Source: Candidatus Aldehydirespirator sp. (GTDB taxonomy: Bacteria > Actinomycetota > Acidimicrobiia > Acidimicrobiales > Aldehydirespiratoraceae). From it: a stretch of 64,000 nt of DNA. This document shows, one piece after another, positions 11,673 through 34,913 of the stretch; positions within the stretch are counted from its first letter, which is position 1, and each line of letters starts with the position of its first letter. The notes below the pieces were generated by a model. That model saw only the letters and a program-made list of their open reading frames with translations, searched no databases and was not told where the DNA came from. The DNA lies in assembly GCA_965204875.1 (NCBI GenBank), contig OZ242020.1, forward strand, positions 104,992-168,991, written 5' to 3'. The translations under genes were made by a program, and so were the position numbers.

Positions 11673-12866
11673 TCAAACAGTGTGGGCGCGGATGACCTCG
11701 GCCAGGGTGGCGACGCCGGTGTTGATGGCTTCGGTGGACAGGTGGCCGAAGCACAGCCGCATGCGGCGGGCGCCGTGCCCGGGATCGGTGCACCAGCCCG
11801 CGCCAGGGTTGAACTCGACTCCGGCCGCCGCGGCGGGCGCGACCAGGTCGGCGGTGTCGTAGCCGTCCGGCAACGTCGCCCACACGAAGATCCCGCCACT
11901 CGGCGGCGTGAACGCGAGCACCGCAGAGAGGTGCTCGCTGAGGGCCGAGCACAGCGCCTCGCACTTGCCCCGCAGCACGCTCACAAGCTGCTCGACATGG
12001 TCGTCGAAATGCGCGGCCGCGTACTCGGCGACCGCGAGCTGCTCGAGCGCACCGGAGCCGCCGTCGGACTTGAGCGGCAGGACCCTGCCGAGCAGGGGCC
12101 AGTCGGCCACGATGTAGCCGAGCCGCAGCGCCGGCGCCAGGGTCTTGGAGAACGAGCCGCAGTAAACGACCTGACCGCCACCGGCGTCGAGCGACCGGAT
12201 CGTCGGCGGCCTCGCACCGTCGAATATCAGATCGGCGTAGCAGTCATCCTCGAAGACGGCCACACCGTGGCACCGGGCCGCCTCCAGCAACTGGAGTCTG
12301 CGCTCGACCCCCATGACGGTTCCCGTCGGGTTCTGAACGGTCGGGATCGTGTAGATGAGCTTGGGCCGCCGACCACGGGCCGCCAGCGACGCAAGGGTCT
12401 CCTCGAGATGGTCGATGCGGATGCCGCCGCCGTCCAGGGCCACGCCGTGGACCTCCGCGCCGAGGGCGGTCAGCCTGCTCAAGGCGCCCGCATACGTGGC
12501 CTCCTCCACCACCACGGCGTCGCCCGGCGCCACGAGCGCGCCGCACACCAGGTCGAGCGCCTGCAGCGAGCCCGAGGTGACCAGCACCTCGTCGGGGTCG
12601 GTGGGCATGTGCGCGCGCCGTTCCAGCGCCCCGGCCACGACCTCGCGCAGCGGCAGGTGTCCCTGGGGACTGCCGCCCAGGTTGTAGCGCGCCAGGTCGG
12701 TGCCGTGGCGGGACAGCGCCACCGCGGCCGCCTCCGACAGTCCCGCGAAGGGCACGCTGTGGGGGTCGTTGTGGCCGCCGACGAAGTTGAAGGGCGGATC
12801 GCCCGCCCACCGCTGTTGCCCGCCGGCCAGGCCGGGCCGCAGCAGGGCCGTCATGTCAAAGCTCAT
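11673..12866 (-). CDS. PLP-dependent aminotransferase (class I/II fold)
   Basis: SFSKTLAPALRLGY provides the PLP-lysine motif. The overall layout matches an aminotransferase of about 400 aa. Confidence 0.75.
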   Translation of the reverse strand: MSFDMTALLRPGLAGGQQRWAGDPPFNFVGGHNDPHSVPFAGLSEAAAVALSRHGTDLARYNLGGSPQGHLPLREVVAGALERRAHMPTDPDEVLVTSGSLQALDLVCGALVAPGDAVVVEEATYAGALSRLTALGAEVHGVALDGGGIRIDHLEETLASLAARGRRPKLIYTIPTVQNPTGTVMGVERRLQLLEAARCHGVAVFEDDCYADLIFDGARPPTIRSLDAGGGQVVYCGSFSKTLAPALRLGYIVADWPLLGRVLPLKSDGGSGALEQLAVAEYAAAHFDDHVEQLVSVLRGKCEALCSALSEHLSAVLAFTPPSGGIFVWATLPDGYDTADLVAPAAAAGVEFNPGAGWCTDPGHGARRMRLCFGHLSTEAINTGVATLAEVIRAHTV

Positions 12867-12975
12867 GGCACGAACCTACTGCGCGCTACCCCGCCCGCAG
12901 AACCCGCGGGTGGCGCAGGCGTCGGACATTCGAGCGCTGTCCAGCAACTTGCGCGCTACTGTGAACACTTGCGCG

Positions 12976-13758
12976 CTACTGTGAACAGCTGGCGGGGATG
13001 ACGGCGAGGAGCACCCCCTCGGCCACCTCCACACCGGCGGGCGAGGCGACGATGACGTTGGACACGCCGCGTGCCGCTGTGGGGTCGAGCACCTCGTCGC
13101 TGAGGGGATACTCCAGGCCCCAGGTTCTCACGACCCGGGCCGGGCCTCCGACGGCCAGCAGCGAGACCACCTCGCCCACATCGCCGACCAGGCGATGCGA
13201 GCCCCTGAGCACCTGCACGCGGGCCTCGTCGACGGTCGCGGAAAGCGCCACTGTGGCCCAGCGAGGCGATGCCAGCACCAGCAGGCCGGCGAGGGCGTGG
13301 TCGAGCCGGCCACCGGCCGAGGCCAGGACATGTACCTCGCAGGCGCGCCGGCAGGCGTATTCGAGCGCAAGCTCGAGGTCGGTCGAGTCCTTGCGCTCGG
13401 GATGGTCCACCACATCGACACCGAGCCGTCGAGCCTCGGCCAGCGCGCCGTCGCCGGCAGAATCCAGGTCACCCACCACGGCATCGACCCGCCAGCCGAG
13501 GCCGACAGCCACATCAAGCCCACCGTCAGCAGCCACAACCAAGTCGGCATCCACCGACACATCAGCGGCAACGGCCGCTCCGACACTCGCTGACACATCA
13601 GCGGCCGAGACCGGGTCGGCGGACGGAGGCGCGACCTCGCTCACAGCGATGGGCTTGTGAGCCTCGCTCACAGCGGCAACGGCCGCGCTGGCGGGCGATT
13701 GCGCGGCCGGTATCGAGGGTATGGCTCCGGCGATCACCAGGGCACGGCCGCGGCGCAT
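12976..13758 (-). CDS. Thiamine diphosphokinase with an expanded low-complexity N-terminal insert
   Basis: AADGG...VVGDLDS...KDSTDLELAL...GGRLDH motifs of the TPK family. An insert of about 60 aa rich in Ala, Val, Ser and Asp lies near the N-terminus. Confidence 0.7.
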   Translation of the reverse strand: MRRGRALVIAGAIPSIPAAQSPASAAVAAVSEAHKPIAVSEVAPPSADPVSAADVSASVGAAVAADVSVDADLVVAADGGLDVAVGLGWRVDAVVGDLDSAGDGALAEARRLGVDVVDHPERKDSTDLELALEYACRRACEVHVLASAGGRLDHALAGLLVLASPRWATVALSATVDEARVQVLRGSHRLVGDVGEVVSLLAVGGPARVVRTWGLEYPLSDEVLDPTAARGVSNVIVASPAGVEVAEGVLLAVIPASCSQ

Positions 13759-15253: not shown

Positions 15254-16414
15254 CTAGGGCTTCGCAGAACCGACGATCCACATGGCGAAATACTGGGCGC
15301 CGCCGCCGTAGGCGTGGCCCAGGGCCCGGCGGGCGCCGTCGACCTGGTGCTCGCCGGCTGCGCCCATCACCTGCAGCGCGGCCTCCGCGAAGCGGATCAT
15401 GCCCGAGGCGCCGATGGGGTTGCTCGAGAGCACGCCGCCGGAGCAGTTGACGGGCAGGTCGCCGCCGTCGAGCTCGGTCGCGCCCGACTCGACCATGCGC
15501 CAGCCGTCACCGGCAGCGGCGAACCCCAGGCTCTCGAGCCACATCGGCTCGTACCACGAGAACGGCACGTAGATCTCCACCGCATCGATCTCGGCCCGGC
15601 GGTCTGAGATGCCGGCCTGGGCGAACACGTCGTCGGCGCACTGCTCGGACGCGGCCGGCGACACCATGTTGCGGCCGCCGTAGCTGTTGCTCTCGCTGCG
15701 CATGGCGGTGCCGTGGACCCACGCCACCGGACCCTCGTGGGCGTCGCCGGCGGCCTCGTCGGTGAGCACCATGGCGCAGGCGCCGTCCGAGGACGGGCAG
15801 GTCTCGGAGTAGCGGATCGGATCCCACAGCATGGGCGAGTCCACCACCTGCTCGAGCGTGAGGCCGTGCTGGTGGAGGTGTGCGTAGGGGTTGAGCAATG
15901 CGTTGCGGCGGTCCTTGTGGGCGACCATGCAGCCGATCAGCTCGGGCGCCCCCGTCATCATCATGTAGCGGCGGATGATCGGCGAGAAGTAGCCGCCAGC
16001 GCCGGCGTTGACGGAGGTGGCGAACGGCTGGGGCAGCGAGAGCGCCCACATGGCGTTGGACTCCGACTGCTTCTCCCAGCCGACGGTGAGCACGCGGCGG
16101 TGCACCCGGCTCTGCACCATCGACGCCGCCACGCAGGCGGTGGAGCCGCCCACCGAGCCTGCGGTGTGAACGCGCATGATGGGCTTGCCGACGGCGCCAA
16201 GTGCCTCGGCCAGGTAGATCTCGGGCATCATCACGCCCTCGAAGAAGTCCGGCGCCTTGCCGATGATCACCGCGTCGATGTCGTCCCAGGTGCACTGCGC
16301 CATCTCCAGGGCGCGGTAGGCGGCCTCCCGCAGCAGCCCGGGGATCGAGACGTCCCGGCGCGCCGAGGCGTACTTGGTCTGGCCCACGCCGGTGACCGCG
16401 GTGCGCTCAGCCAT
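15254..16414 (-). CDS. Thiolase-like protein (SCP-x / lipid-transfer type)
   Basis: Thiolase-fold length and layout. The C-terminal NxSGG-like segment (NCSGGVLSSNPIGASG) is typical of non-specific lipid-transfer thiolases. Confidence 0.8.
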   Translation of the reverse strand: MAERTAVTGVGQTKYASARRDVSIPGLLREAAYRALEMAQCTWDDIDAVIIGKAPDFFEGVMMPEIYLAEALGAVGKPIMRVHTAGSVGGSTACVAASMVQSRVHRRVLTVGWEKQSESNAMWALSLPQPFATSVNAGAGGYFSPIIRRYMMMTGAPELIGCMVAHKDRRNALLNPYAHLHQHGLTLEQVVDSPMLWDPIRYSETCPSSDGACAMVLTDEAAGDAHEGPVAWVHGTAMRSESNSYGGRNMVSPAASEQCADDVFAQAGISDRRAEIDAVEIYVPFSWYEPMWLESLGFAAAGDGWRMVESGATELDGGDLPVNCSGGVLSSNPIGASGMIRFAEAALQVMGAAGEHQVDGARRALGHAYGGGAQYFAMWIVGSAKP

Positions 16415-16498
16415 GCGCCGCCACCGCTAGTCGCCCCCCGACACGCCTGCGCAGATCAGACACGCGCGCCTGCCCCAACCCTCGTAGCGCCGCCACCG

Positions 16499-17554
16499 CT
16501 AGTCGCCCTCCAGCACGCACACCAGGTTCTGCTGCAGGCAGGGCCCCGAGGTGGCGTGCGCGACGGCGCGGTCGCCCTCCCCGCGGGAGATCCGCGACGC
16601 GGCCTCACCGATGCGGATCAGCCCGGAGGCCATCATCGTGTGCGCGGCGAGCGCCCCGCCGGAGGGGTTGACCGCGGTCGTCTCCTCGTCGATGCCCAGC
16701 GCCCGGGTGAGCAGATGCTCCGAGGTGGTGTAGGGCGCGTGCAGTTCGGCGATATCCAGCTTGTCGGCGTTGACGCCGGCGTGCTGCGCGGCCAGCCGTG
16801 CCGACATCGACGAGGTGAGATCGCGGGCGCCGAGAGTGTGGGCATCGCTGCGGTGGTCGAAACCGCGTATCCATGCCGGTCTCTCACAGAGTTCTGCGGC
16901 CCGGTCGCCGGCGGCCAGCACGATGGCGCAGCCGCCGTCGGCGGAGGCCGGCAGGTCCGAGGGGCGCAGCGGATCGACGGCAAACTCCTCGGCGAGGATC
17001 TCATCCACGGTCTTGGGCTCGGCCCGCACCGCCTGGGGGTTGGAGGCGGCATGGGCGCGGCTGCGCGAGGCGATCTCGGCCAGACGCCGCTGACTGACGT
17101 GCCCGCCCTCGAGCTGCAGGCGCGCCGCGAGGGCCTCCACGGCGTGGCTGTCCGGCCAGAGCGGGCACACGTAGTAGGGATCCATCTGGGTGGCGAGAAC
17201 GTCGCGCAGCGAGCCGGGCGACGTCTTGCCGTAGCCGTACACCAGGGCCGTGTCGATGCCGCCGCACTGGATCTTGACCCATGCCTCATACAGCGCCCAG
17301 GCGCCGTCCTGCTCGACATGGCTCTCGCTGATGGGGGGCACCGGACCCGTGCCGTCGATGGTCATGACGAAGGAGAACGCCTGCCCGGCCAGGAAGTCCG
17401 ACGAGCCCGAGCAGGTGAAACCGATGTCAGCCTGGGTGAGGCCGACGTCGGTCTTGGCCCGCTCCATGAGCGGCACCATGAACTCGACCTCGGACTCGCC
17501 GGGGATCGAGGCCTCCTGGCGCTGCGCGAACGAGACGACCGCCACGTCGATCAT
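16499..17554 (-). CDS. Thiolase-like protein, second subunit
   Basis: Thiolase-fold similarity (NPSGGALAAHTMMASGL). It is shorter than its partner and lacks an obvious N-terminal active-site Cys context. Confidence 0.7.
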   Translation of the reverse strand: MIDVAVVSFAQRQEASIPGESEVEFMVPLMERAKTDVGLTQADIGFTCSGSSDFLAGQAFSFVMTIDGTGPVPPISESHVEQDGAWALYEAWVKIQCGGIDTALVYGYGKTSPGSLRDVLATQMDPYYVCPLWPDSHAVEALAARLQLEGGHVSQRRLAEIASRSRAHAASNPQAVRAEPKTVDEILAEEFAVDPLRPSDLPASADGGCAIVLAAGDRAAELCERPAWIRGFDHRSDAHTLGARDLTSSMSARLAAQHAGVNADKLDIAELHAPYTTSEHLLTRALGIDEETTAVNPSGGALAAHTMMASGLIRIGEAASRISRGEGDRAVAHATSGPCLQQNLVCVLEGD

Positions 17555-17699
17555 CCCGGCCCGGACCTCCTCTCGGGCTCAAGTGTGCCGCTCATATCGA
17601 TCACGTCGGCCCGGCCCTCCAGTTCAAGTGCGCATCTCATATCGATCACGTCGGCCCGGCCCTCCCCTCGGACTCAAGCGTGCAGCTCACGTCGATCAC
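17547..17699 (-). repeat. Three tandem units of 45-50 bp at the DUF35/thiolase junction
   Basis: The core tcgatca(c/t) recurs at 17548, 17597, 17642 and 17692. Each unit starts with GTGATCGA and ends with GGCCGGGCCGxx on the coding strand. Confidence 0.9.
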
Positions 17700-18271
17700 G
17701 GCGCCGCGGCCCGGCCGATGCGCTCGTAGTCGTCGATCCGCTCGTCCGGCTCGCCCGTGGGCTCCCAGCCGCTTATGTTGGCCGCCGACGTCTCAAGCTC
17801 GTCGTCGGGCCTCCACACGGCCCTGACGCGCATGCCGATGCGCACCTGCTCGGGCGCGATGTTGACCACCAGGCCCATGAAGCCCACGGAGGCGCCGTCG
17901 AGCACGATCCAGGCGCTGCAGTAGGGCGGCTTGAGGTCGGGCCGGCGCTCGATGGGGACGCGGGTCACGTTGAACGACTCGACATAGCCGACGTCGGGCA
18001 GCTCCACCACCTCGTGCGTCGCCGTGCCAGCGAGCGGGCTCACGCCGCGGGGCGGGACGAACACCTGGCCGGTCACTGCGCAACGCTCGCCGAGGATCCG
18101 CTTTTGGGCCATAGCCCGCAGGTAGCGCGACAGCGCCCGGCCCGGTGTGTAGGTATAGGTGAGCCGCAGCGGGGTGCAGACGCTGGACACGAGATCCTCG
18201 GCGGCGAGGGACTCCGGCAGCGTGACCTTCGAGGACAGCGCGGCGGGAGGCGCCAGCGGATCCGGCGCCAT
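17696..18271 (-). CDS. DUF35 OB-fold / Zn-ribbon protein
   Basis: Its size and its position next to thiolase genes fit. The C-terminal OB-fold-like segment (MRVRAVWRPDD) is typical of DUF35 partners of SCP-x thiolases. Confidence 0.65.
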   Translation of the reverse strand: MAPDPLAPPAALSSKVTLPESLAAEDLVSSVCTPLRLTYTYTPGRALSRYLRAMAQKRILGERCAVTGQVFVPPRGVSPLAGTATHEVVELPDVGYVESFNVTRVPIERRPDLKPPYCSAWIVLDGASVGFMGLVVNIAPEQVRIGMRVRAVWRPDDELETSAANISGWEPTGEPDERIDDYERIGRAAAP

Positions 18272-18720
18272 CAGCAGCCGTCCTCGGGAACGGGCTCGAA
18301 GCCGGCGATGTCGGCTATGTGACCCTCACGCTCGTTGCGCCACACCGCCCGCACCCGCATGCCGGTGAACATCTCAGCACGGTCGGCGAGCACGGCGTGA
18401 AGCATCGGGGTGTCGGCGCCATCGAGTCGTATCAGTGCCCAGGCGAACGGGCGCTCGAACGGCTGCTGGGGCCGGGGATCGCCGTTCCAGGCCCAGGTGA
18501 GCACCTCCCCGCCCTGGCCGACCTCCACCATCTCGGTGAGCGGCTCGGCGTTGATCGGGTCGTACTCCAGCGGCGGGCACAGCACCGAGCCGTCGGCTCT
18601 GCGTATGCCGCAGATCACGCCAGCCCGCAGGCCGGCCAGGAACGCGCCGATCACAGGCCCCGTCGAGCGGGTGAACGGGTACTCCAGCACCAGCGGCGCC
18701 TTCAGCGCTTCGGTGGCCAT
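18271..18720 (-). CDS. DUF35 OB-fold protein (second copy)
   Basis: A paralogous pattern (GMRVRAVWRNE). It has a TGATG one-nucleotide overlap with the downstream DUF35 gene. Confidence 0.65.
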   Translation of the reverse strand: MATEALKAPLVLEYPFTRSTGPVIGAFLAGLRAGVICGIRRADGSVLCPPLEYDPINAEPLTEMVEVGQGGEVLTWAWNGDPRPQQPFERPFAWALIRLDGADTPMLHAVLADRAEMFTGMRVRAVWRNEREGHIADIAGFEPVPEDGC

Positions 18721-18873: not shown

Positions 18874-21513
18874 TTAGCCGGAGGGTTCGCTGAAGTTGAT
18901 GATGCCGACTGTGGCGGGTGTCTGGTCCCGGTCATCATCGGCGCCGGGGGCGTTGTCCCGCAAGCGGATCAGGAACAGGACACTGCTCTTGTCGCCCGTC
19001 TCAGTCTCGTCGGTGTCGTTCATCCAGGTTGAGAAGGTGAGACTGCCGTCCGCGCCGGTGTGGCGGGTGTGGCGGTACTGGTCCCAGTTGGGAGAAGACT
19101 GGACGGCTGAGGGCCAAACTTGGAAATCGTTTGACCCCCCCTCCCTCTTAACCCTGTTCGCGTGTTTCTTGCCGGGTTCGGGGAAGTAGATGCGTTGGAG
19201 CTCAAACGTGGCGCGGCTGGTGCCGTCGGCGCCGGCTGTGGTGTCAGAGTTGCCTGCTCTGAGTTGCACCGTGATGGCCACTTCGTCACCGTAATCGGCC
19301 TCAACGGGGGCGTTCTTGTTCTTTTTTGTGTCATCCCCCTTCTTGAACGACTTCTGCAGATCCGCGCCCTCCGACTTCACGGTGATGCTGTCAGCAGCCG
19401 TTCCAGAGGGAACGGTCACGGTCGGCGCGGACCCAGAAGTGATGCGGTCGCCCTCTGACACATGCACGTAGAACACATGCAACCGCTTGTTGTCCAGCAC
19501 CTTCCTGGTGTCCAGGTTGATGATCGCCGTAGAGGCCGGACCGTTGAACTCCTCGAGCACGCGGATCACGATCGTCTTCTTATCACCGGCAGTGCTCGGG
19601 TTCGGGTCCGCCGGCGCAGTGACAGGGAACGAGACCATGCCCGTACCGTCGGTCTTCAGCGTATATTCAGCATCGATATCATAATCACTAACGGTCTCGC
19701 ATTCAGCATCACCACATTGAGGATCGAGTCGGGTATAGCCGATGTACTCGGTGACCTCATGCATCTTATTCCGACGGGGACTATAACGCATCGCGGTAGC
19801 ATGTCCATCCACATCAAATTGCCAGGAATGCAGATTGACAGGGCTGGCACCGTCGACACCGAACGCGGCGCGCTTCAGCTTGTCACCGTCGTTCTCGTCG
19901 GTGTGCAACAACTGCACCGTGAACTGCGACCAATCACCGAACTTCATCTCAAAATAATGGGCACTCTCGCTGTCCGTAGCCTTCGTGTCCGCAACCTTGT
20001 CATCATCAGCCGTAATACGCAACGACTCCGCCGCCACCTGACTCAACGGCAAAGTCGTGGTCGTGGTAGTCGTAGTGGTCGTAGTCGTGGTAGTCGTAGT
20101 CGTCGTCGTGGTAGTCGTAGTCGTCGTGGTAGCCGGGGTGGTAGTCGTAGTCGTAGTAGTCGTGGTAGCCGGGGTGGTAGTCGTAGTAGTGGTAGCCGGG
20201 GTGGTAGTCGTGGCAGTCGTAGTAGTTGTCGCGACCGGGGCCGAACCACCACCGCCACCGCCTGCAGGGGCGGCGGGAACAACCGCGGCCGCGGCCGGCA
20301 CCGTGACAGCATCAGGATCACCGGCGATGCGCAACTCGAAACCATTCACCTCGCCGTTGTAACGGGTGCCGCGGTCGCCGGTCCAGACCCACACCGTCAC
20401 ACCCCGACCAATGGTCGACGCGCTCAACTCGTCCAGTTTGACATCGCCGTCGGCGCCGGTCACCGGGTCACGCGCATCGATCGCGCACGCCGTGGAGGTG
20501 CGGTTAACGCTGCGCACGAGAGCGTTGCACCCGCCCCGCAGATCAAACGCCCGATAGCGGCGCTGCGAACTCACATAGAACCCATCCACCGGCGCCCCCG
20601 ACACCGGCCTGAACGTCGCGTCGCGCACCGACACCACCACCACACCACCGTCGGCCTGCGCCGTCACACCCGCCGGACGCACCCCCGTGTGCGCCAGCGT
20701 GCGCTTGATGAACGACGCCATATTTTTGCGCGGCACCGGACCCTCAGGATCAAACCTCCTCGCATCCCCGGCGCTGCCCGTCGTGATACCAAGCTCATAG
20801 GCGTAACTCGCCGCAACACGCGCATCCCCCGCAGGCACATCTGCGAAATGATCCAGCGTCCCACCCGAACCCAGGATCAGCTCACCCGCCATCGCGCCGT
20901 CCTGATGGAACAGGCCGGGGCTGGCATGGCGCAGGAACCCGATCAGAGCCACCGCCATCTCGGCCCGCGTGATGCTCGCATCGGGCCTGAACGCCATCCC
21001 CGAGCCGGCCAAAATGTCGTTGCGAGCCAGCGCCAGGATCGCGTTGCGGCGCTCCTCGTCGAGATCGGCGACATCGTTGAAGTCGGCGGCGCCCGAGCCG
21101 CCTGTCAGATCCACCCCGGCGACCCCAGCAGCCCTGTGCAAGAACAACGCCATCTGCGAACGCGACACCTCAGACCCGGCATCGAACCGCTCGGCCGTCC
21201 TGCCCCTGGTGATCCCGTAATACGCGATGCAGTTGATCGCATCCTCAGCAACCAACCCCTCGACATCCACAAACCCAGCATCCTCCGACGCGTCACCAAA
21301 ACACGCAGAAAACACCGGCAACGCATCAGCCTCCGCGCGGTCGTCCCCCACAGGCGCAGCCCCGACCGGCGCAGCCACCACAACCCCACCAACCAGACCA
21401 GCCACCAACAACACACACCACAACAAACCACCACCACGACACCGGCGGCGGCGGCCGGCTACAACATCAGCAGCCCCCCCCCCCCGGGGCGAAGTACGAA
21501 CCATCAGAGACAT
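18874..21513 (-). CDS. SLH-domain surface (S-layer-like) protein with poly-Thr linker, paralog 1
   Basis: The conserved start MSLMV lies behind GGAGAGG. It is followed by an Arg-rich n-region and a hydrophobic signal, then three SLH-like repeats (FVDVEGLVAEDAINCIAYYGITRG..F.., FNDVADLDEERRNAILALARNDILAG..FRPDASITRAEMAV, and others). A poly-Thr/Pro/Ala linker of about 60 aa, a variable middle and a conserved C-terminus complete the protein. Confidence 0.8.
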   Translation of the reverse strand: MSLMVRTSPRGGGAADVVAGRRRRCRGGGLLWCVLLVAGLVGGVVVAAPVGAAPVGDDRAEADALPVFSACFGDASEDAGFVDVEGLVAEDAINCIAYYGITRGRTAERFDAGSEVSRSQMALFLHRAAGVAGVDLTGGSGAADFNDVADLDEERRNAILALARNDILAGSGMAFRPDASITRAEMAVALIGFLRHASPGLFHQDGAMAGELILGSGGTLDHFADVPAGDARVAASYAYELGITTGSAGDARRFDPEGPVPRKNMASFIKRTLAHTGVRPAGVTAQADGGVVVVSVRDATFRPVSGAPVDGFYVSSQRRYRAFDLRGGCNALVRSVNRTSTACAIDARDPVTGADGDVKLDELSASTIGRGVTVWVWTGDRGTRYNGEVNGFELRIAGDPDAVTVPAAAAVVPAAPAGGGGGGSAPVATTTTTATTTTPATTTTTTTPATTTTTTTTTTPATTTTTTTTTTTTTTTTTTTTTTTTTTLPLSQVAAESLRITADDDKVADTKATDSESAHYFEMKFGDWSQFTVQLLHTDENDGDKLKRAAFGVDGASPVNLHSWQFDVDGHATAMRYSPRRNKMHEVTEYIGYTRLDPQCGDAECETVSDYDIDAEYTLKTDGTGMVSFPVTAPADPNPSTAGDKKTIVIRVLEEFNGPASTAIINLDTRKVLDNKRLHVFYVHVSEGDRITSGSAPTVTVPSGTAADSITVKSEGADLQKSFKKGDDTKKNKNAPVEADYGDEVAITVQLRAGNSDTTAGADGTSRATFELQRIYFPEPGKKHANRVKREGGSNDFQVWPSAVQSSPNWDQYRHTRHTGADGSLTFSTWMNDTDETETGDKSSVLFLIRLRDNAPGADDDRDQTPATVGIINFSEPSG

Positions 21514-21700
21514 CAGCCTCTCCTCTCGAACACCGGCGGAACCCCGCCGACCCGAATCGACCGGCACGACCCTAACACCACCCGGCCGGCCACAAGCCAA
21601 CCCCGGCAGCACCAGCGCCGTGCCACCCACCAACATACCCCCCCCCCCCCCCCGCAACGCAACGCAACCACAACTCCTCAAGACCTTGAAGGGCCGGCAA
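21514..21700 (-). promoter_or_regulatory. Conserved leader/promoter module of SLH paralog 1, containing a poly-G tract
   Basis: About 170 nt are conserved upstream of all three SLH genes. The module includes a run of about 16 C on the plus strand (21638..21653) abutting aacata (TATGTT on the coding strand), and a GGCGG-GGTT-CCGCC hairpin just before the RBS. Confidence 0.5.
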
Positions 21701-21837: not shown

Positions 21838-24381
21838 TTAGCCGGAGGGTTCGCTGAGCCTCACGATGCCGCTCGTGACCGGAGTGTTGTTGAGGCTGTT
21901 GGCGGCGTTGGGAGCGTTGGTGCTTGAGCGGATCAGGAACACGACACTGCCTGTGTCACCGGCGGCGGTGTTGGGGTCGTCCATCCAAACCGAGAAGGTG
22001 AGACTGCCGTCAGCGCCAGTGTAACGGGTTCGCCGCCACTGATGCCAATCAGTGGACTGCTGGATAGACTCGGGTCTAACCTCCAAATTGCTTCCTCCAC
22101 TCCTTTTGATCCGATTCACGTGACCGGCCGACGGAAAGTAGCCGCGGTGAATATTGAACGCAGCGCGGCTCGTGCCATCCGCTCCAACGGTGGTGTCTGC
22201 ACCGTCAGCGTCCTTGAGTTGAACCGTGACAGTCACCTCATCACCATAATCGGCCTCCACGAACACCTTGCTGCTGTTACCGGACGTGAACGACTTGTCC
22301 GTCTTCGCACCCTTGGACGTCACAGTGATGCTCGCGGCCGCCTCGCCCGCGGGAACTGTCGTGGTCACCGCAGAGCCAGAAGTCGTACGAGCCCCCTCCG
22401 TCACAAGCACAACAACCACATGCAACCGCTTGTTCGGCAGACCCGTGAACGCGGGAGAAGCCGGACCGTTGACCTCCTCGACAATATGGAGCACCAGCGT
22501 AGCCCTGTCACCCGCAGCGCTTGGGTTCGGATCCGCCGGCGCTGTAACAGCGAACGAAGCCATCCCCGTGCCATCGGTCTTCAGAGTATGCTGAGCAACG
22601 TTATTCGGAGTTTCAGCGCAGGGGTCGCCGCCCCGAAAACCATCCACATAAGCATGGTCATTAGCGACAACTTTAGAAACAGCCTCAGAAATGCTGGTAC
22701 TACACGGAGAAAGGCCAACTCCACGACCCGTCCCGTTGACCTGCCGAACATCGACCAGCACCGGGTTCGTGCCGTCCACACCGAACGCGGCGCGCTTCAC
22801 CCTGTCACCATCGTTCTCATCGGTGTACAACAACTGCACCGTGAACTGCGACCAATCACCGAACTTCATCGCATAATAGGAAACCTTATTTTGATCAATG
22901 AGCCTGGAACCCGCAACAGTCTCATCATCAGGCGTGATGCTCAACGACTCCGCCGCCACCTGACCCAACGGCATAGTCGTAGTAGTCGTCGTCGTCGTCG
23001 TGGTGGTAGTGGTCGTAGTCGTCGTCGTCGTAGTCGTCGTCGTCGTAGTCGTCGTAGCAGTGGGCGTAGTCGTAGTCGTGGTGGTGGTGGTTGCCGGGGC
23101 GGAACCACCGCCGCCGCCTGCAGGAGCGGCGGGAACAACCGCGGTCGCGGCCGGCACCGTGACAGCCCCAGCCTCCCCAGCGATGCGCAACTCGAAACCG
23201 TCCACACTGCTGTCGTTGTAAGAATCGCCGCGGTCGCCGGACCACACCCACACCGTCACACCACGACCAATCGTCGCAGCGGTCAACTCGTCCAGCCTCA
23301 CATCACCGCCGGCACCGGTCACAGGATCACGCGCGTCGATCGCGCACACCGTCGAAGTGCGGTTCACGCTTCTGACGATCGCGTTGCACCCGCCCCGCAG
23401 ATCAAACGCCCGATAGCGGCGCTGCGAACTCACATAGAACCCATCAACCAACGCACCGGCCACCGGCGCGAACACCGCGTCACGCACCGACACAACCACC
23501 GTGTTGCCGTCAGACTGCGCCGTCACCCCCGCCGGGCGCACCTTCGTGTGCGCCAGCGTGCGCGTGATGAACGACGCCATATTCTTGCGCAGAACGGGAT
23601 CACCAGGCGAGAACAGGCTCGCGCCCGCCGCGCTGCCCCTGGTGATACCAAGCTCATACGCGTAGGAGACCGCCGTGTCCACACCCTCAGGCAGACCGCG
23701 ACGCGCGTCAGCGAAATGATCCAGCGTCGCACCCGAACCCAGGATCAGCTCACCGGCCATAGCGCCGCTCCGATGGAACAGTCCGGGGCTGGCATGGCGC
23801 AGGAACCCGACCAGTGCCACCGCCATCTCGGCCCGCGTGATGCTCGCATCGGGCCTGAACGCCATCCCCGACCCGGCCAAGATGTCATTGCGGGCCAACG
23901 CCATGATCGCGTTGCGGCGCTCCTCGTCCAAATCCGCGATGTCAGCGAAGTCGGCGGCACCCGAGCCGCCTGTCAAATCCAACCCCGCCATCCCAGCAGC
24001 CCTGTGCAAGAACAGCGCCATCTGCGAACGCGTCACCTCAGACCCGGCATCGAACCGCTCAACCGTCCTGCCCCTGGTGATCCCATAGTACGCCAGGCAG
24101 TTGATCGCAGCCTCAGCAACCAACCCCTCAGTGTCCACGAACCCCGCGTCACGCGTGGCATCACCCACACACGCCGAAAACACCGGCAACGCATCGGCCT
24201 CCGCGCCGCTGCTGCCCACAGGCGCAGCCCCAACCGGCGCAGCCACCACAACAGAACCCACCAAACCAACCACCAACAACGCAGACCACCATAAGCGAGG
24301 CTTACCCCCGCCACGGCGGCGGCCAGCTACAACATCAACCAGCCCCCCCCCCGCGGGTGAAGTACGAACCATCAGAGACAT
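21838..24381 (-). CDS. SLH-domain surface protein with poly-Thr linker, paralog 2
   Basis: The architecture and N-terminal half match paralog 1 (MSLMVRTSPAGGG...). The central region of about 200 aa has diverged. The C-terminus is conserved (...YTGADGSLTFS.WMDD...VVFLIRSSTNAP...SEPSG). Confidence 0.8.
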   Translation of the reverse strand: MSLMVRTSPAGGGLVDVVAGRRRGGGKPRLWWSALLVVGLVGSVVVAAPVGAAPVGSSGAEADALPVFSACVGDATRDAGFVDTEGLVAEAAINCLAYYGITRGRTVERFDAGSEVTRSQMALFLHRAAGMAGLDLTGGSGAADFADIADLDEERRNAIMALARNDILAGSGMAFRPDASITRAEMAVALVGFLRHASPGLFHRSGAMAGELILGSGATLDHFADARRGLPEGVDTAVSYAYELGITRGSAAGASLFSPGDPVLRKNMASFITRTLAHTKVRPAGVTAQSDGNTVVVSVRDAVFAPVAGALVDGFYVSSQRRYRAFDLRGGCNAIVRSVNRTSTVCAIDARDPVTGAGGDVRLDELTAATIGRGVTVWVWSGDRGDSYNDSSVDGFELRIAGEAGAVTVPAATAVVPAAPAGGGGGSAPATTTTTTTTTPTATTTTTTTTTTTTTTTTTTTTTTTTTTTMPLGQVAAESLSITPDDETVAGSRLIDQNKVSYYAMKFGDWSQFTVQLLYTDENDGDRVKRAAFGVDGTNPVLVDVRQVNGTGRGVGLSPCSTSISEAVSKVVANDHAYVDGFRGGDPCAETPNNVAQHTLKTDGTGMASFAVTAPADPNPSAAGDRATLVLHIVEEVNGPASPAFTGLPNKRLHVVVVLVTEGARTTSGSAVTTTVPAGEAAASITVTSKGAKTDKSFTSGNSSKVFVEADYGDEVTVTVQLKDADGADTTVGADGTSRAAFNIHRGYFPSAGHVNRIKRSGGSNLEVRPESIQQSTDWHQWRRTRYTGADGSLTFSVWMDDPNTAAGDTGSVVFLIRSSTNAPNAANSLNNTPVTSGIVRLSEPSG

Positions 24382-27354: not shown

Positions 27355-30201
27355 CTATGCCTCCACGCGCTCGATCATCGAGGTGTCAGGCCCCTTGGAC
27401 ACCACGAAGCGCACGGGCATCTCGTCGCCCAGCTCGCTGATGTGGGTGACGATGCACACCATCCGGCCGGACTCGGCCAGGTCGCCGATGGCGCCGGCCA
27501 CGACGCCCAGGGCGTCGGGGTCGAGCGTGCCGAAGCCCTCGTCGAGGAACAGCGAACCGAGCGCCGGACTCCCCGCGGAGGCCGTCTCGCCCCCGCCGTC
27601 GCCGAGCGCCAGAGCCAGAGCGAGGCTCGCCAGGAACGTCTCGCCGCCCGAGAGGGTCTTGGCCCCGCGCACCTCGTCCGCGTTCTGGTGGTCGCAGATC
27701 CCGAAGTCGGGGTCGTCGGGCACAAAGGAGTACTTGCCGTCCGACAGCTCCAGCAGCCGCTCGTTGGCCCGCTCGATCAAGTCCCCGACCGCGCCCACAA
27801 GGAGCCACCGCTCGAACCCGTCGGCCCGCAGCAACCGGCCGAGCTCCGCGGCTACCTCTTCGTCGGCGCGCAACTTGCCGACGCGTGCTTCTAGCTGCTG
27901 ACGCCGACGTAGCTCCTCGGTAGCAGTCTTGTGAGACATCTCGGCATTTGTGACGGCCACCGCCATCTCGCTCACGAAGCGACTCGAGTCGTCGCCGGGC
28001 TCGAAGTGGGCCGAGCACAGGGTTCGTGCGGACGCGATCAGCTCACGCTCGCGGCCCTGCGCGTCGCGCGCCCGGCGCTCGGCCGCCTCTGACTGCCTGG
28101 CGACCGCGGCCAGCGTCTCGATGGCCCAGGCGGCCAGGTCCTCCCAGTCCTGCAGCAACGACGCCTCAGGTGCCGGTGGCGACAGTGGAGCCAACTCGTC
28201 GCGCCTGGCGCCGTAGTCGCGCCGCGCTCGCTGTTCGTCGGCCTCTAGAGCCTCTAGCGCCTTGACCGCTTGCTGCTTGCGCTCATGGGCAGTCTGTTCT
28301 GCGGCCTCGGCCTTCTGCCGGGCGGCGGCCAGAGCCCCGGCCCGCTCGATGTCCGCCTCAAGCTGGGCTACCTCGGGCTCTCCGGCCAAACGCTCTTCGA
28401 GTTCCTGGCACTGCCGCTGGCAGCTGTCCCGATCTGCCTCGACCTTCGCCTTCTCGACCTCGGCATCCTGCTCCGCCCTAAGGCAGTCCCGCGTCTCGGC
28501 AGCATCTCGCAGGTCGCGCTCGGCCTGCTCCGCGGCCTGCCGCGCAGCGCTGCACCGCTCCGCTTCGGCAGCAAGCTCGTCGGCCTGTGATTCGAGACGG
28601 TCCAGCTCGACCCCGTCCGGCTGGCCCTGAAGCTCGTGCTGCAGCGTCTTCTCTCGCGCCGATAGCTGCTGCAACTGTGACGAGAGGCGTGCCGAGGCGC
28701 TGCGCAACTCAACAAGGGCGTCGGCCGCGCGTTCAACTTCGGACTGGGCGCGGCGGTGGTCAACATCGAGCCTGGCAAGCTCAGCGTCCGGGTCGTGTTC
28801 GGGAAGTTCCACGACCGTCCGGCGGCACACGGGGCACGGTTCACCCTCTCGCAACTGCGTAACCAGTCCCTCGGCCTGCTTGAGCGCACGAGCGAGATCG
28901 AGCCGCTCCACTGCCTTCGACAAGACCCCCTTGGCCGCCGACTGCTCGGCCTGCGCCGACTGCTCGGCCGCAACAGCACGTTCATGCTCAACTGCACGAT
29001 CGGCCACCTGCGGTGCCAGCTCTTCCAGTTCGGCCCGCAACGCGCGCACCCGCTCGATCTGGCCCCGATCCGGACCGCCGGCTGCGGAGTCGAGCGCCTG
29101 CTCAGCCGCACGACGCGCCGCAGCCGCTGCGCCCTCAGCCTCAGCCAGTCGCTCACGCACGACTTCGGCGGCCGCGACCGCTTCCCCGGCGACACGCTCC
29201 GCCTCGCCGGCGCGCTCCTGCAGGGAATCCAGCCGGCCCCGCTCTGCGTCGAGACGCCCGTGATCATCGAGAAGCCTCCGACACTGCCCCACGCTGGGAC
29301 CCTCGTCTGCCTCACGGCGCGCCCCGGTCGCGGCATCGCGCGCCTCCTCGTATTTCGCCGCGGCGCCGTCGCTTGCCTCACGAGCCGCCTGAAGCTCGGC
29401 GTCGAGCCGTTGCACGGCGCCTGGCACCGCCTTGCTACGGGCGAGCACCTTCCCAGCGGCGGCGAGGCGCGACATCTCGCCCTCGGCCGCCTTGCGATCA
29501 GCAACAGCCACCTCGAGCTGCTCCATCCGGGCTTCGAGCTCTGCCTGGGCGGCGCGTGCGGCCTCGGCAAGCCCGGCAAGCTCGGTGACCCGTTCAGCGG
29601 TCGGCGCCTCACGCTCGAGTTCGGGCCGCAGCGCCGCGATCTGATCCCGGGCCGTGGCGGCCCGCCTGCGAGCCTCGGCACCCACGCGGTCGTAGATGCC
29701 CAGGCCGATGAGGTGTTTCAGCAGTTCCTGGCGGTCGGCGGCCTTGTCGTGCAGGAACTCCGCGAAACGGCCCTGCGGCAGCACCACGGTCTTGGTGAAG
29801 CGGTCGAAGTCGAGGCCCAGGAGCCCCTCAACGGCGGGGCCCATCTCGCGGGCGCTGCCGGCCAGGGTCTGCTCGCCTCGCTCCAGGCGGGCCTCCCTGG
29901 TGGAGGCGCCGGCGGCGGTCCGGCGAACCACGCGCGTCGCCGTGTACGCCTCGCCGCCCGCCTCGAAGTCGAGGGAGACCCGCGCCTCCGCCGCCAGCTG
30001 GTTGATGACCGGTGCCACGGCCCGGGCGTCGTCGTAGCGGGCCACGGTTCCGAACAGGGCGAAGGTGATGCCGTCGATGATCGTGGTCTTGCCGGATCCG
30101 GTAGGCCCCACGAGGGCTGCCTGCTCCACATCGCTGAAGTCCACCGCGGTGTCGGAGCGGAAGCTGCCGAAGCCCCTCAGGCTCAACTTCAAGGGCCTCA
30201 T
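27355..30201 (-). CDS. sbcC: SbcC / Rad50-like SMC ATPase
   Basis: Walker A GPTGSGKTT, long coiled coils, a central zinc hook CPVC, signature LSGGETFLASLALALAL, Walker B LFLDEGFGTLD. Confidence 0.9.
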   Translation of the reverse strand: MRPLKLSLRGFGSFRSDTAVDFSDVEQAALVGPTGSGKTTIIDGITFALFGTVARYDDARAVAPVINQLAAEARVSLDFEAGGEAYTATRVVRRTAAGASTREARLERGEQTLAGSAREMGPAVEGLLGLDFDRFTKTVVLPQGRFAEFLHDKAADRQELLKHLIGLGIYDRVGAEARRRAATARDQIAALRPELEREAPTAERVTELAGLAEAARAAQAELEARMEQLEVAVADRKAAEGEMSRLAAAGKVLARSKAVPGAVQRLDAELQAAREASDGAAAKYEEARDAATGARREADEGPSVGQCRRLLDDHGRLDAERGRLDSLQERAGEAERVAGEAVAAAEVVRERLAEAEGAAAAARRAAEQALDSAAGGPDRGQIERVRALRAELEELAPQVADRAVEHERAVAAEQSAQAEQSAAKGVLSKAVERLDLARALKQAEGLVTQLREGEPCPVCRRTVVELPEHDPDAELARLDVDHRRAQSEVERAADALVELRSASARLSSQLQQLSAREKTLQHELQGQPDGVELDRLESQADELAAEAERCSAARQAAEQAERDLRDAAETRDCLRAEQDAEVEKAKVEADRDSCQRQCQELEERLAGEPEVAQLEADIERAGALAAARQKAEAAEQTAHERKQQAVKALEALEADEQRARRDYGARRDELAPLSPPAPEASLLQDWEDLAAWAIETLAAVARQSEAAERRARDAQGRERELIASARTLCSAHFEPGDDSSRFVSEMAVAVTNAEMSHKTATEELRRRQQLEARVGKLRADEEVAAELGRLLRADGFERWLLVGAVGDLIERANERLLELSDGKYSFVPDDPDFGICDHQNADEVRGAKTLSGGETFLASLALALALGDGGGETASAGSPALGSLFLDEGFGTLDPDALGVVAGAIGDLAESGRMVCIVTHISELGDEMPVRFVVSKGPDTSMIERVEA

Positions 30202-30349
30202 CGCGGCGCCTCCGCGCCCCCGGCACGCCTGCGAGCGAGTGCCGCAGGAACGCTCCGAACCGGGTCAGGCCTCATCGCGGCGCCTCCGCGCCCCCGGCAC
30301 GCCTGCGAGCGAGTGCCGCAGGAACGCTCCGAACCGGGTCGGGCCTCAT
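30196..30349 (-). repeat. Two tandem 74-bp units between sbcD and sbcC
   Basis: cat (ATG) recurs at 30199, 30273 and 30347. The two units are nearly identical, differing only at about 30267/30341 (a/g). Confidence 0.9.
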
Positions 30350-31527: not shown

Positions 31528-31582
31528 CGCCGCACCCGCCGCAGCCGGGCAACCACGCCGGCGCGCCGCGCCTGTTGCAGCC

Positions 31583-34858: not shown

Positions 34859-34913
34859 TCCACCGAATGTGATCCACCGAATGTAATCCACCGAATGTAA
34901 TCCACCGAATGTA
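34859..34913. repeat. Four tandem copies of the 14-bp unit tccaccgaatgtNa between murF and the amidase gene
   Basis: Read directly from the sequence: gtccaccgaatgtga tccaccgaatgtaa tccaccgaatgtaa tccaccgaatgta. The array ends about 25 nt upstream of the amidase start. Confidence 0.9.

What the first reader, a model, noticed from the sequence alone, without database searches (positions are those of the whole stretch)
17547..17699. Junction repeat between the DUF35 and thiolase genes forms GTGA/ATGA-coupled mini-ORFs of 17 and 32 codons
The DUF35 stop overlaps a GTG (CCGTGATCGAC). From that GTG, VIDVSCTLESEGRAGPT* (17646..17699) ends in a TGA overlapping the next GTG. VIDMRCALELEGRADVIDMSGTLEPERRSGPG* (17551..17649) then ends in a TGA overlapping the thiolase ATG (GGATGATCGAC, MIDVAV). 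Each unit of 45-50 bp starts like the thiolase N-terminus (VID/MID) and ends like the DUF35 C-terminus (GRAAAP*). The units have diverged from each other, so the duplications are not recent, yet the overlaps are retained.
Basis: seen in the sequence. Interest (0 to 1): 0.6.

Follow-up and report, generated by a model that had tools for sequence, protein, structure and literature searches.

The report
Tandem-duplicated gene junction with relay mini-ORFs
The stop/start junction between two enzyme-subunit genes of a sponge-associated actinobacterium has been duplicated three times in tandem, and because each copy keeps the overlapping stop/start signal, ribosomes can probably still pass from the first gene to the second through two throw-away mini-genes, much like the MIRU repeats of mycobacteria.

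Summary
On the minus strand, three tandem units of 50, 45 and 50 nt (17555-17699) lie between a DUF35/OB-fold gene and an SCP-x-type thiolase-like gene. GTGA/ATGA overlaps chain the DUF35 stop to a 17-codon ORF, then a 32-codon ORF, then the thiolase ATG.

The host is an Acidimicrobiales bacterium of the 'Ca. Aldehydirespirator' clade. Outgroups and three clade members have a direct NTGA overlap at this junction. Other clade members carry many different inserts of 20-217 nt, mostly tandem units that begin like the thiolase start. In all 18 expanded variants, a chain of mini-ORFs still reaches the thiolase start. The peptides are not conserved. There is no RNA structure, Rfam match, promoter or terminator, and no second copy of the unit in the window.

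Best reading: a locally generated, junction-spanning minisatellite that is tolerated, and probably filtered by selection, because it keeps translational coupling. It works like MIRUs but is not a dispersed element.

Caveat: neutral simulation shows that much of the overlap retention follows automatically from duplicating an NTGA junction. For this array alone, retention is not significant. Interest is moderate.

The parts
17696..18271 (-). Upstream gene: DUF35-type protein (OB_ChsH2_C domain, weak zinc-ribbon match), 191 aa. Its TGA stop is at 17698-17696.
   Evidence: ORF. Pfam OB_ChsH2_C E=1.2e-11. PDB relative 6ok1_B ChsH2(DUF35), E=5.6e-7.
17696..17699 (-). Node 0: GTGA. The DUF35 stop overlaps the GTG of mini-ORF 1 by 4 nt.
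17650..17699 (-). Repeat unit 1, 50 nt: GTGATCGACGTGAGCTGCACGCTTGAGTCCGAGGGGAGGGCCGGGCCGAC.
17646..17699 (-). Mini-ORF 1: 17 codons plus stop, VIDVSCTLESEGRAGPT*.
   Evidence: It is below the 20-aa cut-off of the ORF listing. GC by codon position is 0.59/0.59/0.94.
17646..17649 (-). Node 1: GTGA. The stop of mini-ORF 1 overlaps the GTG of mini-ORF 2.
17605..17649 (-). Repeat unit 2, 45 nt. It has a 5-nt deletion relative to units 1 and 3. Its length is a multiple of 3, so translation runs in frame into unit 3.
17555..17604 (-). Repeat unit 3, 50 nt. It starts with a GTGATCGAT that is read in frame as Val-Ile-Asp inside mini-ORF 2.
17551..17649 (-). Mini-ORF 2: 32 codons plus stop, VIDMRCALELEGRADVIDMSGTLEPERRSGPG*.
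   Evidence: No Pfam match. GC3 is 0.72 against 0.92-0.93 in the flanking genes.
17551..17554 (-). Node 3: ATGA. The stop of mini-ORF 2 overlaps the thiolase ATG.
17566..17574 (-). Purine-rich Shine-Dalgarno-like tract GAGAGGAGG, 11 nt upstream of the thiolase ATG. Counterparts in the other units are GAGGGGAGG at 17661-17669 and GGAGGG at 17615-17620.
   Evidence: Sequence. Unexpanded relatives have a similar tract in the DUF35 3' end. Function as a ribosome-binding site is inferred.
16499..17554 (-). Downstream gene: SCP-x/lipid-transfer-type thiolase-like protein, 351 aa, MIDVAVVSF...
   Evidence: Pfam Thiolase_C_1 and Thiolase_C, both below gathering score. PDB relatives 7yvy, 6esq and 7pxp. 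It is 100% identical to database protein P0001, found on a 3.05-Mb contig.

Best explanation
The array is a locally generated minisatellite. A segment of about 50 nt was duplicated in tandem. That segment spanned the ancestral GTGA stop/start overlap, taking roughly the last 30 nt of the DUF35 gene plus the first 12-18 nt of the thiolase gene. The copies have since diverged by 18-20%, and one has a 5-nt deletion.

Every copy carries the NTGA overlap and a purine-rich tract. A ribosome that terminates DUF35 can therefore restart at once on a 17-codon ORF, terminate and restart on a 32-codon ORF, and terminate exactly on the thiolase ATG. This would be a chain of termination-reinitiation events with 4-nt overlaps.

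The mini-ORFs would then be throw-away spacers whose only role is to deliver ribosomes. The insert is tolerated because coupling of two subunits of a thiolase-DUF35 complex is kept. Variants that break the chain, or that add a long N-terminal extension to the thiolase, are probably removed by selection. Copy number may modulate how much thiolase is made relative to DUF35.

Shown: the anatomy, the local origin, the variability of the junction in the clade, and the unbroken chains in relatives.
Inferred: that the mini-ORFs are translated, that coupling matters here, and that selection maintains the chain.
For: Anatomy.

Local origin:
- The repeat extends into both flanking genes.
- The unit head GTGATCGACGTG equals the thiolase head.
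- The unit tail GRAGPT* parallels the DUF35 tail GRAAAP*.
- There is no other copy in the 64-kb window.
- The second array in the window (30194-30360) has an unrelated 74-nt unit that likewise begins like its own downstream gene.

Ancestral state: distant relatives have the stop and start within -4 to +4 nt in 44 loci. Outgroups L027-L036 and clade members L114, L116 and L117 have direct NTGA.

Hypervariability: the distance from the DUF35 stop to the thiolase start ranges from -1 to 216 nt in close relatives. Arrays have units of 20, 36, 40, 41 and 75 nt, and one 40/41-nt unit family has 1, 3, 4 or 5 copies.

Relay closure: all 18 distinct expanded junctions are closed, 14 of them purely by NTGA overlaps, with up to 8 successive mini-ORFs in L017. 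Two distant lineages, L048 and L062, also have bridging ORFs.

Compensation: the 40-nt unit family is 1 mod 3 and would break with 1 or 3 extra copies. It is closed in different ways: an internal GTGA (29+11), an internal ATGA (20+20), an 80-nt hop, or TAG plus 7 nt.

Null models: random inserts close in about 0.3 of cases each. Neutral duplication gives 0.49 when fresh and 0.29-0.32 after divergence, with 0.24-0.33 in-frame fusions. No fusions longer than 5 codons are seen.

Peptides are not conserved between units or lineages.

Complex formation: relatives of both proteins are solved as thiolase-DUF35 complexes, going by their PDB entry names.

Literature: NTGA is the commonest coupling motif. 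[quoted passage not shown] 2023 as it appears in the review's reference list. A short ORF can serve only to deliver ribosomes (review PMC12548453).
Against: There are no expression or ribosome-profiling data, so translation of the mini-ORFs and dependence of the thiolase on them are inferred.

Much of the overlap retention is automatic. If in-frame fusions are excluded, a fresh junction duplication closes the relay in 74% of simulations. The clade-wide significance therefore ranges from about 0.14-0.2 (most generous null) to about 1e-3 or lower (diverged null).

For this window's array alone, the closed relay has a null probability of 0.17-0.3. The invariant GTGATCGA head is not significantly more conserved than expected, with 14 of 50 columns variable (my alignment of the units, same as used).

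Each unit also supplies a GGAGG-like tract, so the thiolase might be initiated independently of coupling.

L040 and L044 tolerate a 17-nt untranslated gap after the DUF35 stop.
Confidence: 0.65

Rival explanations
1. Neutral junk. The array is a slippage-generated minisatellite with no effect on fitness. The overlaps persist only because each copy inherited them. The thiolase is translated from its own ribosome-binding site whether or not the mini-ORFs are read.
For: - Simulated fresh junction duplications keep a closed relay in 49% of cases, or 74% if in-frame fusions are set aside.
- Closure for this array alone is not unusual, with null 0.17-0.3.
- A GAGAGGAGG tract lies upstream of the thiolase ATG.
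- Peptides drift freely, and GC3 of mini-ORF 2 has dropped to 0.72.
- L040 and L044 have a 17-nt untranslated gap.
Against: - 0 of 18 expanded variants in the clade are broken. The simulation predicts 18% broken when fresh and about 41% after 10% divergence.
- There are no long in-frame fusions, where 24-33% are expected.
- Homologous 40-nt units close the relay by different internal nodes.
- Indels between homologous single-ORF inserts (44, 41 and 20 nt) are all multiples of three.
- Tight stop/start spacing at this junction is conserved across Actinobacteria.
Confidence: 0.22
2. A MIRU-type mobile or dispersed repeat inserted at the thiolase start codon and then amplified.
For: The behaviour is the same as described for MIRUs: tandem intercistronic units whose ORF is coupled at -4 spacing to the downstream gene (PMC12548453). 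Many junctions in the clade carry arrays. The thiolase1/thiolase2 junction of relatives carries a shared palindromic, REP-like unit.
Against: - The unit ends match the local flanking genes.
- No other copy is present in 64 kb.
- The other array in the window has an unrelated unit derived from its own flanks.
- Different relatives have unrelated units at the same junction.
- A metagenome scan found only single in-frame coding matches.
Confidence: 0.05
3. The mini-ORFs encode functional micropeptides.
For: The reading frames are open with start codons and high GC3 in ORF 1 (0.94). A 44-codon hydrophobic ORF occupies the same position in L115.
Against: - There are 9 differences between units 1 and 3. 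By my own reading of the units, most of the in-frame ones change the amino acid and only 2 are synonymous.
- Peptides in relatives are unrelated in sequence and range from 4 to 72 codons.
- There is no Pfam match.
- No relative carries the same peptides.
Confidence: 0.03
4. A structured RNA, regulatory site or internal promoter/terminator lies between the genes.
For: Intergenic repeats in operons are sometimes RNA-processing or attenuation sites.
Against: - The fold energy equals that of shuffled sequence: z=0.08, with 103 of 200 shuffles folding as well.
- No inverted repeat lies within the units.
- No Rfam match at E<=1.
- No promoter-like or terminator-like site.
Confidence: 0.03
5. Assembly artefact.
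For: Tandem repeats are error-prone in assemblies. Only one assembly of this genome is on record.
Against: - The units differ at 18-20% of positions and by a 5-nt indel, so they are not a collapsed or stuttered copy.
- Analogous arrays occur at the same junction in many independent short-read and long-read assemblies.
Confidence: 0.02

Closest known systems
MIRUs (mycobacterial interspersed repetitive units; Supply et al. 1997, as summarised in the review PMC12548453)
   Same: Both are tandem units of tens of bp in an intercistronic region of an operon, in the same orientation as the genes. Each unit holds a short ORF whose stop overlaps the next start codon (NTGA, '-4 nt spacing'), so insertion has little effect on expression of the downstream gene. 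Copy number varies between relatives. Both hosts are high-G+C Actinomycetota.
   Different: MIRUs are a dispersed, apparently mobile family with one consensus at many loci. Here the unit is built from the local gene ends, is absent from the rest of the window, and differs from the other array in the window and from the arrays of relatives at the same junction. The host is Acidimicrobiales, not Mycobacterium. Similarity to the MIRU consensus was not tested.
NTGA-coupled gene pairs and 'ribosome-delivery' short ORFs (termination-reinitiation coupling; review PMC12548453; Huber et al. 2023 and Shell et al. 2015 as cited there)
   Same: Both use a 4-nt stop/start overlap between co-directional genes that encode subunits of a complex. 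In both, a short upstream ORF's sole role may be to hand a ribosome to the next start.
   Different: Here two hand-overs are chained in series, and up to eight in relative L017. They are created by tandem duplication of the junction itself. Coupling has not been measured.
De novo tandem repeats that arise independently and evolve fast in some prokaryotic genomes (e.g. Borg elements; PMC9879509, abstract only)
   Same: Both are lineage-specific and abundant, with independently arising tandem direct repeats that include intergenic ones.
   Different: The organism and context differ. No stop/start relay is described in that abstract. I saw only the abstract, so the comparison is superficial.

Membership tests
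MIRU | Tandem units of about 40-100 bp in an intercistronic region, co-oriented with the flanking genes | tested here: met
   Units of 50, 45 and 50 nt lie between DUF35 and thiolase on the minus strand.
MIRU | An ORF inside the unit coupled to the downstream start codon with -4 nt spacing (NTGA) | tested here: met
   GTGA at 17699-17696 and 17649-17646, and ATGA at 17554-17551.
MIRU | A dispersed, apparently mobile family with the same consensus at many unrelated loci | tested here: not met
   There is no other copy in 64 kb. Unit ends derive from the local genes. The 74-nt array at 30194-30360 is unrelated in sequence. The metagenome scan gave only chance coding hits. Limit: only about 2% of the genome could be searched.
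MIRU | Copy number variable between strains or relatives (VNTR behaviour) | tested here: inconclusive
   This is shown for a different unit family at the same junction: 1 copy in L008/L020, 3 in L014, 4 in L017 and 5 in L022. No relative carries this window's own unit, so its variability is unknown.
MIRU | Sequence related to the MIRU consensus; host in the genus Mycobacterium | not tested
   No MIRU sequence was available in the tools. The host is an Acidimicrobiales bacterium of the 'Ca. Aldehydirespirator' clade.
Translationally coupled gene pair (termination-reinitiation) | Co-directional ORFs with overlapping or nearly abutting stop and start | tested here: met
   All three hand-overs are NTGA. 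The junction is tight (-4 to +4 nt) in 44 distant relatives.
Translationally coupled gene pair (termination-reinitiation) | Translation of the downstream ORF depends on translation of the upstream ORF | not testable with these tools
   This needs reporter fusions or ribosome profiling.
Translationally coupled gene pair (termination-reinitiation) | Partners are subunits of one complex | tested here: inconclusive
   This rests on homology only. The DUF35 protein matches 6ok1_B ChsH2(DUF35). The thiolase matches 6esq and 7pxp, which I know as thiolase-DUF35 complexes. The E-values are modest.
REP/MITE-like palindromic intergenic repeat | The unit forms a stable hairpin or has terminal inverted repeats | tested here: not met
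   No inverted repeat within the units. Fold z-score 0.08.
Functional small protein gene | Peptide sequence conserved or under purifying selection in paralogous units or relatives | tested here: not met
   Units differ mostly by amino-acid-changing substitutions (plus my reading of the unit sequences). Peptides at this junction in relatives are unrelated. No Pfam hit.

The most novel reading that the evidence does not exclude
Genomes of the 'Ca. Aldehydirespirator' clade have an unusually high rate of junction-spanning tandem duplication inside operons. Arrays are seen at four junctions of this one operon across relatives, and at the SbcD/SbcC junction in this window. Selection keeps only those arrays that form closed chains of NTGA-coupled mini-ORFs. 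The arrays would then act as evolvable rheostats: each extra termination-reinitiation step changes the ratio of downstream to upstream subunit. They would also be a natural series of 1-8 consecutive reinitiation events. This would be a locally generated, non-mobile counterpart of MIRUs and might explain how MIRU-like families originate.
Probability: 0.17. Interest if true: 0.65.

Novelty: new variant of a known kind. Interest (0 to 1): 0.42.

Why it matters
If the relay reading holds, this clade offers a natural, graded series for measuring how efficiently bacterial ribosomes reinitiate at NTGA overlaps. The same gene junction occurs with 0 to 8 successive stop/start hand-overs. It would also show whether operon stoichiometry can be tuned by copy number.

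It also shows that MIRU-like architecture can arise locally from the junction itself, without a mobile element. That bears on the unresolved origin of MIRUs.

In practice, such arrays cause gene callers to place starts and stops inconsistently. Here the thiolase is called at 351 or 360 aa, and DUF35 anywhere from 105 to 327 aa in relatives, most often 191-247. The arrays are also potential strain-typing markers for uncultured sponge symbionts.

Tried and rejected
1. Exact look-up of the window's DUF35 and thiolase proteins, and of P0001, in the contig index found nothing on record. The source assembly and possible strain variants could not be retrieved.
2. The metagenome scan with the unit-boundary pattern GAGGNCCGGGCCGRSRTGATCGAY gave 27 single hits. 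All lie in frame inside unrelated coding sequences (E-x-R-A-E/D-V/M-I-D), and none is an array.
3. Structured RNA, Rfam family, promoter and terminator were all negative.
4. Micropeptide function was rejected for lack of any conservation.
5. An antisense ORF (17250..17729 on the plus strand, 159 aa) covers the array. I judged it spurious. The units sit in different frames relative to it, because the unit spacings are not multiples of three, so it cannot explain the repeat.
6. I considered slippage between the 8-nt direct repeat GATCGACG in the DUF35 tail (codons I-D-D) and the same 8-mer in the thiolase head (M-I-D-V). It would give a 41-nt unit with the head GTGATCGACGAC. The observed units are 50 nt with the thiolase-type head GTGATCGACGTG. 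This simple model does not fit the window, though microhomology may still help.
7. Dinucleotide shuffles at fixed length proved a poor null for relay closure (0.01-1.0, depending mainly on length mod 3). I replaced them with random-length Markov inserts and explicit duplication-plus-mutation simulations.
8. Conservation of the node motif within this array alone is not significant.
9. Literature searches for an already described non-mycobacterial equivalent found nothing specific.
Full report
**Observation.** All features here are on the minus strand. A DUF35-type gene (18271..17696; Pfam OB_ChsH2_C E=1e-11) is followed by a thiolase-like gene (17554..16499; Thiolase_C_1/Thiolase_C), then by a second thiolase-like gene (16414..15254). 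A second DUF35 gene lies upstream (18720..18271). Between DUF35 and the first thiolase lie three head-to-tail units: 17699-17650 (50 nt), 17649-17605 (45 nt) and 17604-17555 (50 nt). Tandem Repeats Finder reports 17557-17711, period 50, 3.2 copies, 74% matches, score 173. The repeat finder aligns three 71-nt copies at 69-82% identity that run into the DUF35 tail and the thiolase head. The DUF35 TGA lies inside a GTGA. The GTG opens a 17-codon ORF (VIDVSCTLESEGRAGPT*) whose TGA lies inside the next GTGA. That GTG opens a 32-codon ORF (VIDMRCALELEGRADVIDMSGTLEPERRSGPG*) whose TGA lies inside the ATGA of the thiolase start. The 45-nt unit is a multiple of three, so the third GTGATC is read through in frame. 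This is why three units give two ORFs.

**What it is not.**
- The region folds no better than shuffled sequence (z=0.08).
- It has no internal inverted repeats and no Rfam match at E<=1.
- It has no promoter-like or terminator-like site.
- The 32-residue peptide has no Pfam match.
- The unit occurs nowhere else in the 64-kb window.
- A scan of public metagenome contigs with the unit-boundary pattern returned only single chance matches inside coding sequences.

**Organism and ancestral state.** The thiolase is 100% identical to one database protein from a 3.05-Mb contig. The next relatives are at 88-89%. Related loci come from Acidimicrobiales MAGs. Many are labelled 'Candidatus Aldehydirespirator', and several MAG names suggest sponge metagenomes. 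The one paper that names the genus concerns sponge-associated Actinobacteriota. In 44 distant relatives (Microthrixaceae, Iamiaceae, Streptomyces and others), the DUF35 stop and thiolase start are within -4 to +4 nt of each other. In the nearer outgroups L027-L036, and in clade members L114, L116 and L117, they form a direct NTGA overlap. Tight coupling is therefore ancestral and widely conserved. Relatives of both proteins have been solved. By my knowledge of these PDB entries, they are thiolase-DUF35 complexes: 6ok1 Ltp2-ChsH2(DUF35), 6esq and 7pxp. The review of translational coupling lists Huber et al. [quoted passage not shown]

**The junction is hypervariable in the clade.** The distance from the DUF35 stop to the thiolase start ranges from -1 to 216 nt among close relatives.
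- Many inserts are tandem arrays whose units begin ATGATCGAC, like the thiolase start.
- A 40/41-nt unit family is present once (L008, L020, L021, L024, L025), three times (L014), four times nearly identically (L017) or five times (L022).
- Other unit sizes are 20 nt (L026) and 75 nt (L009).
- 36-nt units in L007 are in frame and lengthen DUF35.
- Non-repetitive inserts occur in L011, L013, L002-L006, L015, L016, L038 and L115.
- No relative has this window's unit.
- The window's thiolase gene differs from the nearest relatives at 42-49% of 4-fold sites, whereas the units differ from each other at 18-20%. The array therefore arose after the split from every sequenced relative, but it is not recent.

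**Local origin.** The unit head GTGATCGACGTG equals the thiolase head ATGATCGACGTG. In the DUF35 frame the unit tail reads ...EGRAGPT*, parallel to the DUF35 tail ...IGRAAAP*. A second array in the window (30194-30360, two 74-nt units) lies between an SbcD-like and an SbcC-like gene. Its sequence is unrelated, yet it is built the same way. Each unit starts ATGAGGCC like the downstream gene and ends like the upstream gene. It forms two identical 25-codon ORFs with ATGA at both ends. These are junction-spanning duplications, not copies of one dispersed element.

**Relay test.** I followed a terminating ribosome from the DUF35 stop to the nearest start codon, allowing from 4 nt upstream of the stop to 12 nt beyond it, then to that ORF's stop, and so on.
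- All 18 distinct expanded junctions in the clade reach the thiolase start.
- Fourteen do so purely by NTGA overlaps, with 1 to 8 mini-ORFs (L017: MIDVREPWPG*/VTPA* four times).
- Three end in TAG followed by 7 nt before the ATG. One (L012) has a first hop with a 10-nt untranslated gap (start 13 nt after the first base of the stop).
- L115 was fetched after the pattern had been formulated. It has one 44-codon ORF from the DUF35 GTGA to the thiolase GTGA.
- Two distant lineages with expanded junctions (L048, L062) also have bridging ORFs. L040 and L044 have a 17-nt untranslated gap followed by a 5-codon ORF that ends in ATGA on the thiolase start.
- The peptides are unrelated between lineages, at 4 to 72 codons.
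- In the homologous 40-nt units, length is 1 mod 3. These would not close with one or three extra copies. Closure is achieved differently in different genomes: an internal GTGA (29+11 nt), an internal ATGA (20+20), an 80-nt hop over two units, a 41-nt periodic variant, or TAG plus 7 nt.
- The homologous single-ORF inserts of 44, 41 and 20 nt differ by multiples of three.

**How much of this is automatic?**
- Random inserts of random length close the relay in about 0.3 of cases.
- A fairer null duplicates a random segment spanning an unexpanded NTGA junction and then mutates it. Fresh duplications give relay 0.49, in-frame fusion to the thiolase 0.33 and broken 0.18. After 10% substitutions and 1% indels, the figures are 0.32, 0.27 and 0.41.
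- I counted about 15 independent architectures: 11 relays, 3 short fusions of 4-5 codons, and 1 with a gap.
- By my binomial calculation, the deficit of broken chains has a probability of about 0.2 under the freshest null and about 0.004 under the diverged null. No long fusion is seen.
- The clade-wide pattern therefore favours selection for an unbroken hand-over, but it is not proof.
- For this window's array alone, the closed relay is unremarkable (null 0.17-0.3).
- Within the array, 14 of 50 columns vary, by my alignment of the three units. The invariant GTGATCGA head is not significantly conserved.
- Of the 9 differences between units 1 and 3, most of the in-frame ones change the amino acid and only 2 are synonymous, by my own reading. 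GC3 has fallen to 0.72 in mini-ORF 2, against 0.92-0.93 in the flanking genes. The peptides themselves are drifting.

**Mechanism proposed.** Replication slippage or unequal recombination duplicated the junction. Each copy carries NTGA plus a purine-rich tract (GAGGGGAGG, GGAGGG, GAGAGGAGG). Translation is therefore handed from DUF35 through two disposable ORFs to the thiolase by termination-reinitiation. Arrays that break the chain, or that extend the thiolase N-terminus, are lost. Copy number may tune the thiolase:DUF35 ratio. The anatomy, local origin and comparative pattern are shown. Translation, coupling dependence and selection are inferred.

**Comparison with known systems.** The closest known case is the MIRU family of mycobacteria. 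The review PMC12548453 (citing Supply et al. 1997) describes MIRUs as apparently mobile repeats that insert at start codons. [quoted passage not shown] The array here works like a MIRU. It fails the defining feature of being a dispersed family with a common consensus, so it should not be filed as a MIRU. I found no paper describing such arrays outside mycobacteria. The library is limited, so this is not proof of absence.

**Verdict.** This is a real, well-defined feature. It is a new, locally generated variant of a known kind: intercistronic tandem repeats with coupled mini-ORFs. Interest is moderate. It would be higher if a genome-wide census or reporter assays show that relay closure is selected and that copy number tunes expression.

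Noticed in passing
window 30194-30360 (minus strand): Two 74-nt tandem units (96% identical) lie between an SbcD-like gene (30346-31608, Metallophos) and an SbcC-like gene (27355-30201, AAA_23/SbcC_Walker_B). They form two identical 25-codon ORFs (MRPDPVRSVPAALARRRAGGAEAPR) with ATGA overlaps at both ends. The architecture matches the finding, but the sequence is unrelated.
   Followed up: partly
window 16414-16499 (minus strand): The junction between the two thiolase-like genes carries a 72-nt duplication: GGGCGACTAGCGGTGGCGGCGC occurs twice. An ORF starting at a GTG 2 nt after the TAG stop spans the insert and ends in a TGA just inside the second thiolase gene, overlapping its first 8 nt.
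   Followed up: partly
L002 4057-4224; L012 4065-4264; L016 4036-4336; L022 4067-4262: Relatives carry 71-91-nt tandem units at the thiolase1/thiolase2 junction. The TRF arrays in L012, L016 and L022 are 96-100% identical internally. The units share a palindromic core AATTGGCAGC...GCTGCCAGTT, suggesting a REP-like element family distinct from the array under study. Long bridging ORFs span most of them.
   Followed up: partly
L022 1928-2179; L117 871-933; L027 5185-5274; L015 1546-1865: Further tandem arrays (72 nt x3.5, 21 nt x3, 45 nt x2, 103 nt x3.1) sit at or next to other gene junctions of the same operon in relatives. Outgroup loci L028-L037 show none. Junction duplication looks like a lineage-wide tendency.
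   Followed up: no
L115 1397-1531: The single bridging ORF at the DUF35/thiolase junction of this relative is 44 codons and strongly hydrophobic (VIAVFVIVAALSAIAVIVAAVAVISVMM...). It is built from in-frame GTGATCG repeats of 15 and 30 nt. It could be a de novo membrane peptide or just a by-product.
   Followed up: no
L007/L001 2839-2950: Here the junction repeats (36 nt x3.1) are in frame with DUF35. They lengthen its C-terminus with a low-complexity Ser/Thr/Glu-rich tail (247 aa instead of 191), and the GTGA overlap with the thiolase is kept.
   Followed up: no
window 34859-34913 (minus strand): TTACATTCGGTGGA is repeated 3.9 times (97% matches) in a 110-nt gap upstream of gene 33427-34836, just before a GGGAGGG tract and an ATG. 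It is unusually A+T-rich for this genome and might be an operator or another regulatory repeat.
   Followed up: no
window 12947-12987 (minus strand): A perfect 20-nt direct repeat GTTCACAGTAGCGCGCAAGT x2 straddles the stop of gene 12976-13758, upstream of gene 11673-12866.
   Followed up: no
window 18874-21681 (minus strand), also 22974-23076 and 61050-61113: A 935-aa ORF contains a very long threonine-rich tract (TTTTATTTTPATTTTTTT...) encoded by 9-nt-periodic repeats. Similar GTC/GTA-periodic repeats recur at two other places in the window.
   Followed up: no
window, 11 sites (e.g. 463, 10201, 48154, 50034, 53866, 58269, 60341): RTGATCGAY occurs 11 times against 2.3 expected from shuffles. 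Four are the array nodes and seven are elsewhere. I did not check whether the others are start codons or Val-Ile-Asp codons.
   Followed up: no
L040, L044 (2968-3001): Soil Acidimicrobiaceae MAGs have a 14-nt duplication of the thiolase start (ATGAGAGGCCCCGCATGAGAGAC). It gives a 5-codon ORF MRGPA* with ATGA onto the thiolase start, after a 17-nt untranslated gap. In L049 the first ATG has decayed.
   Followed up: no
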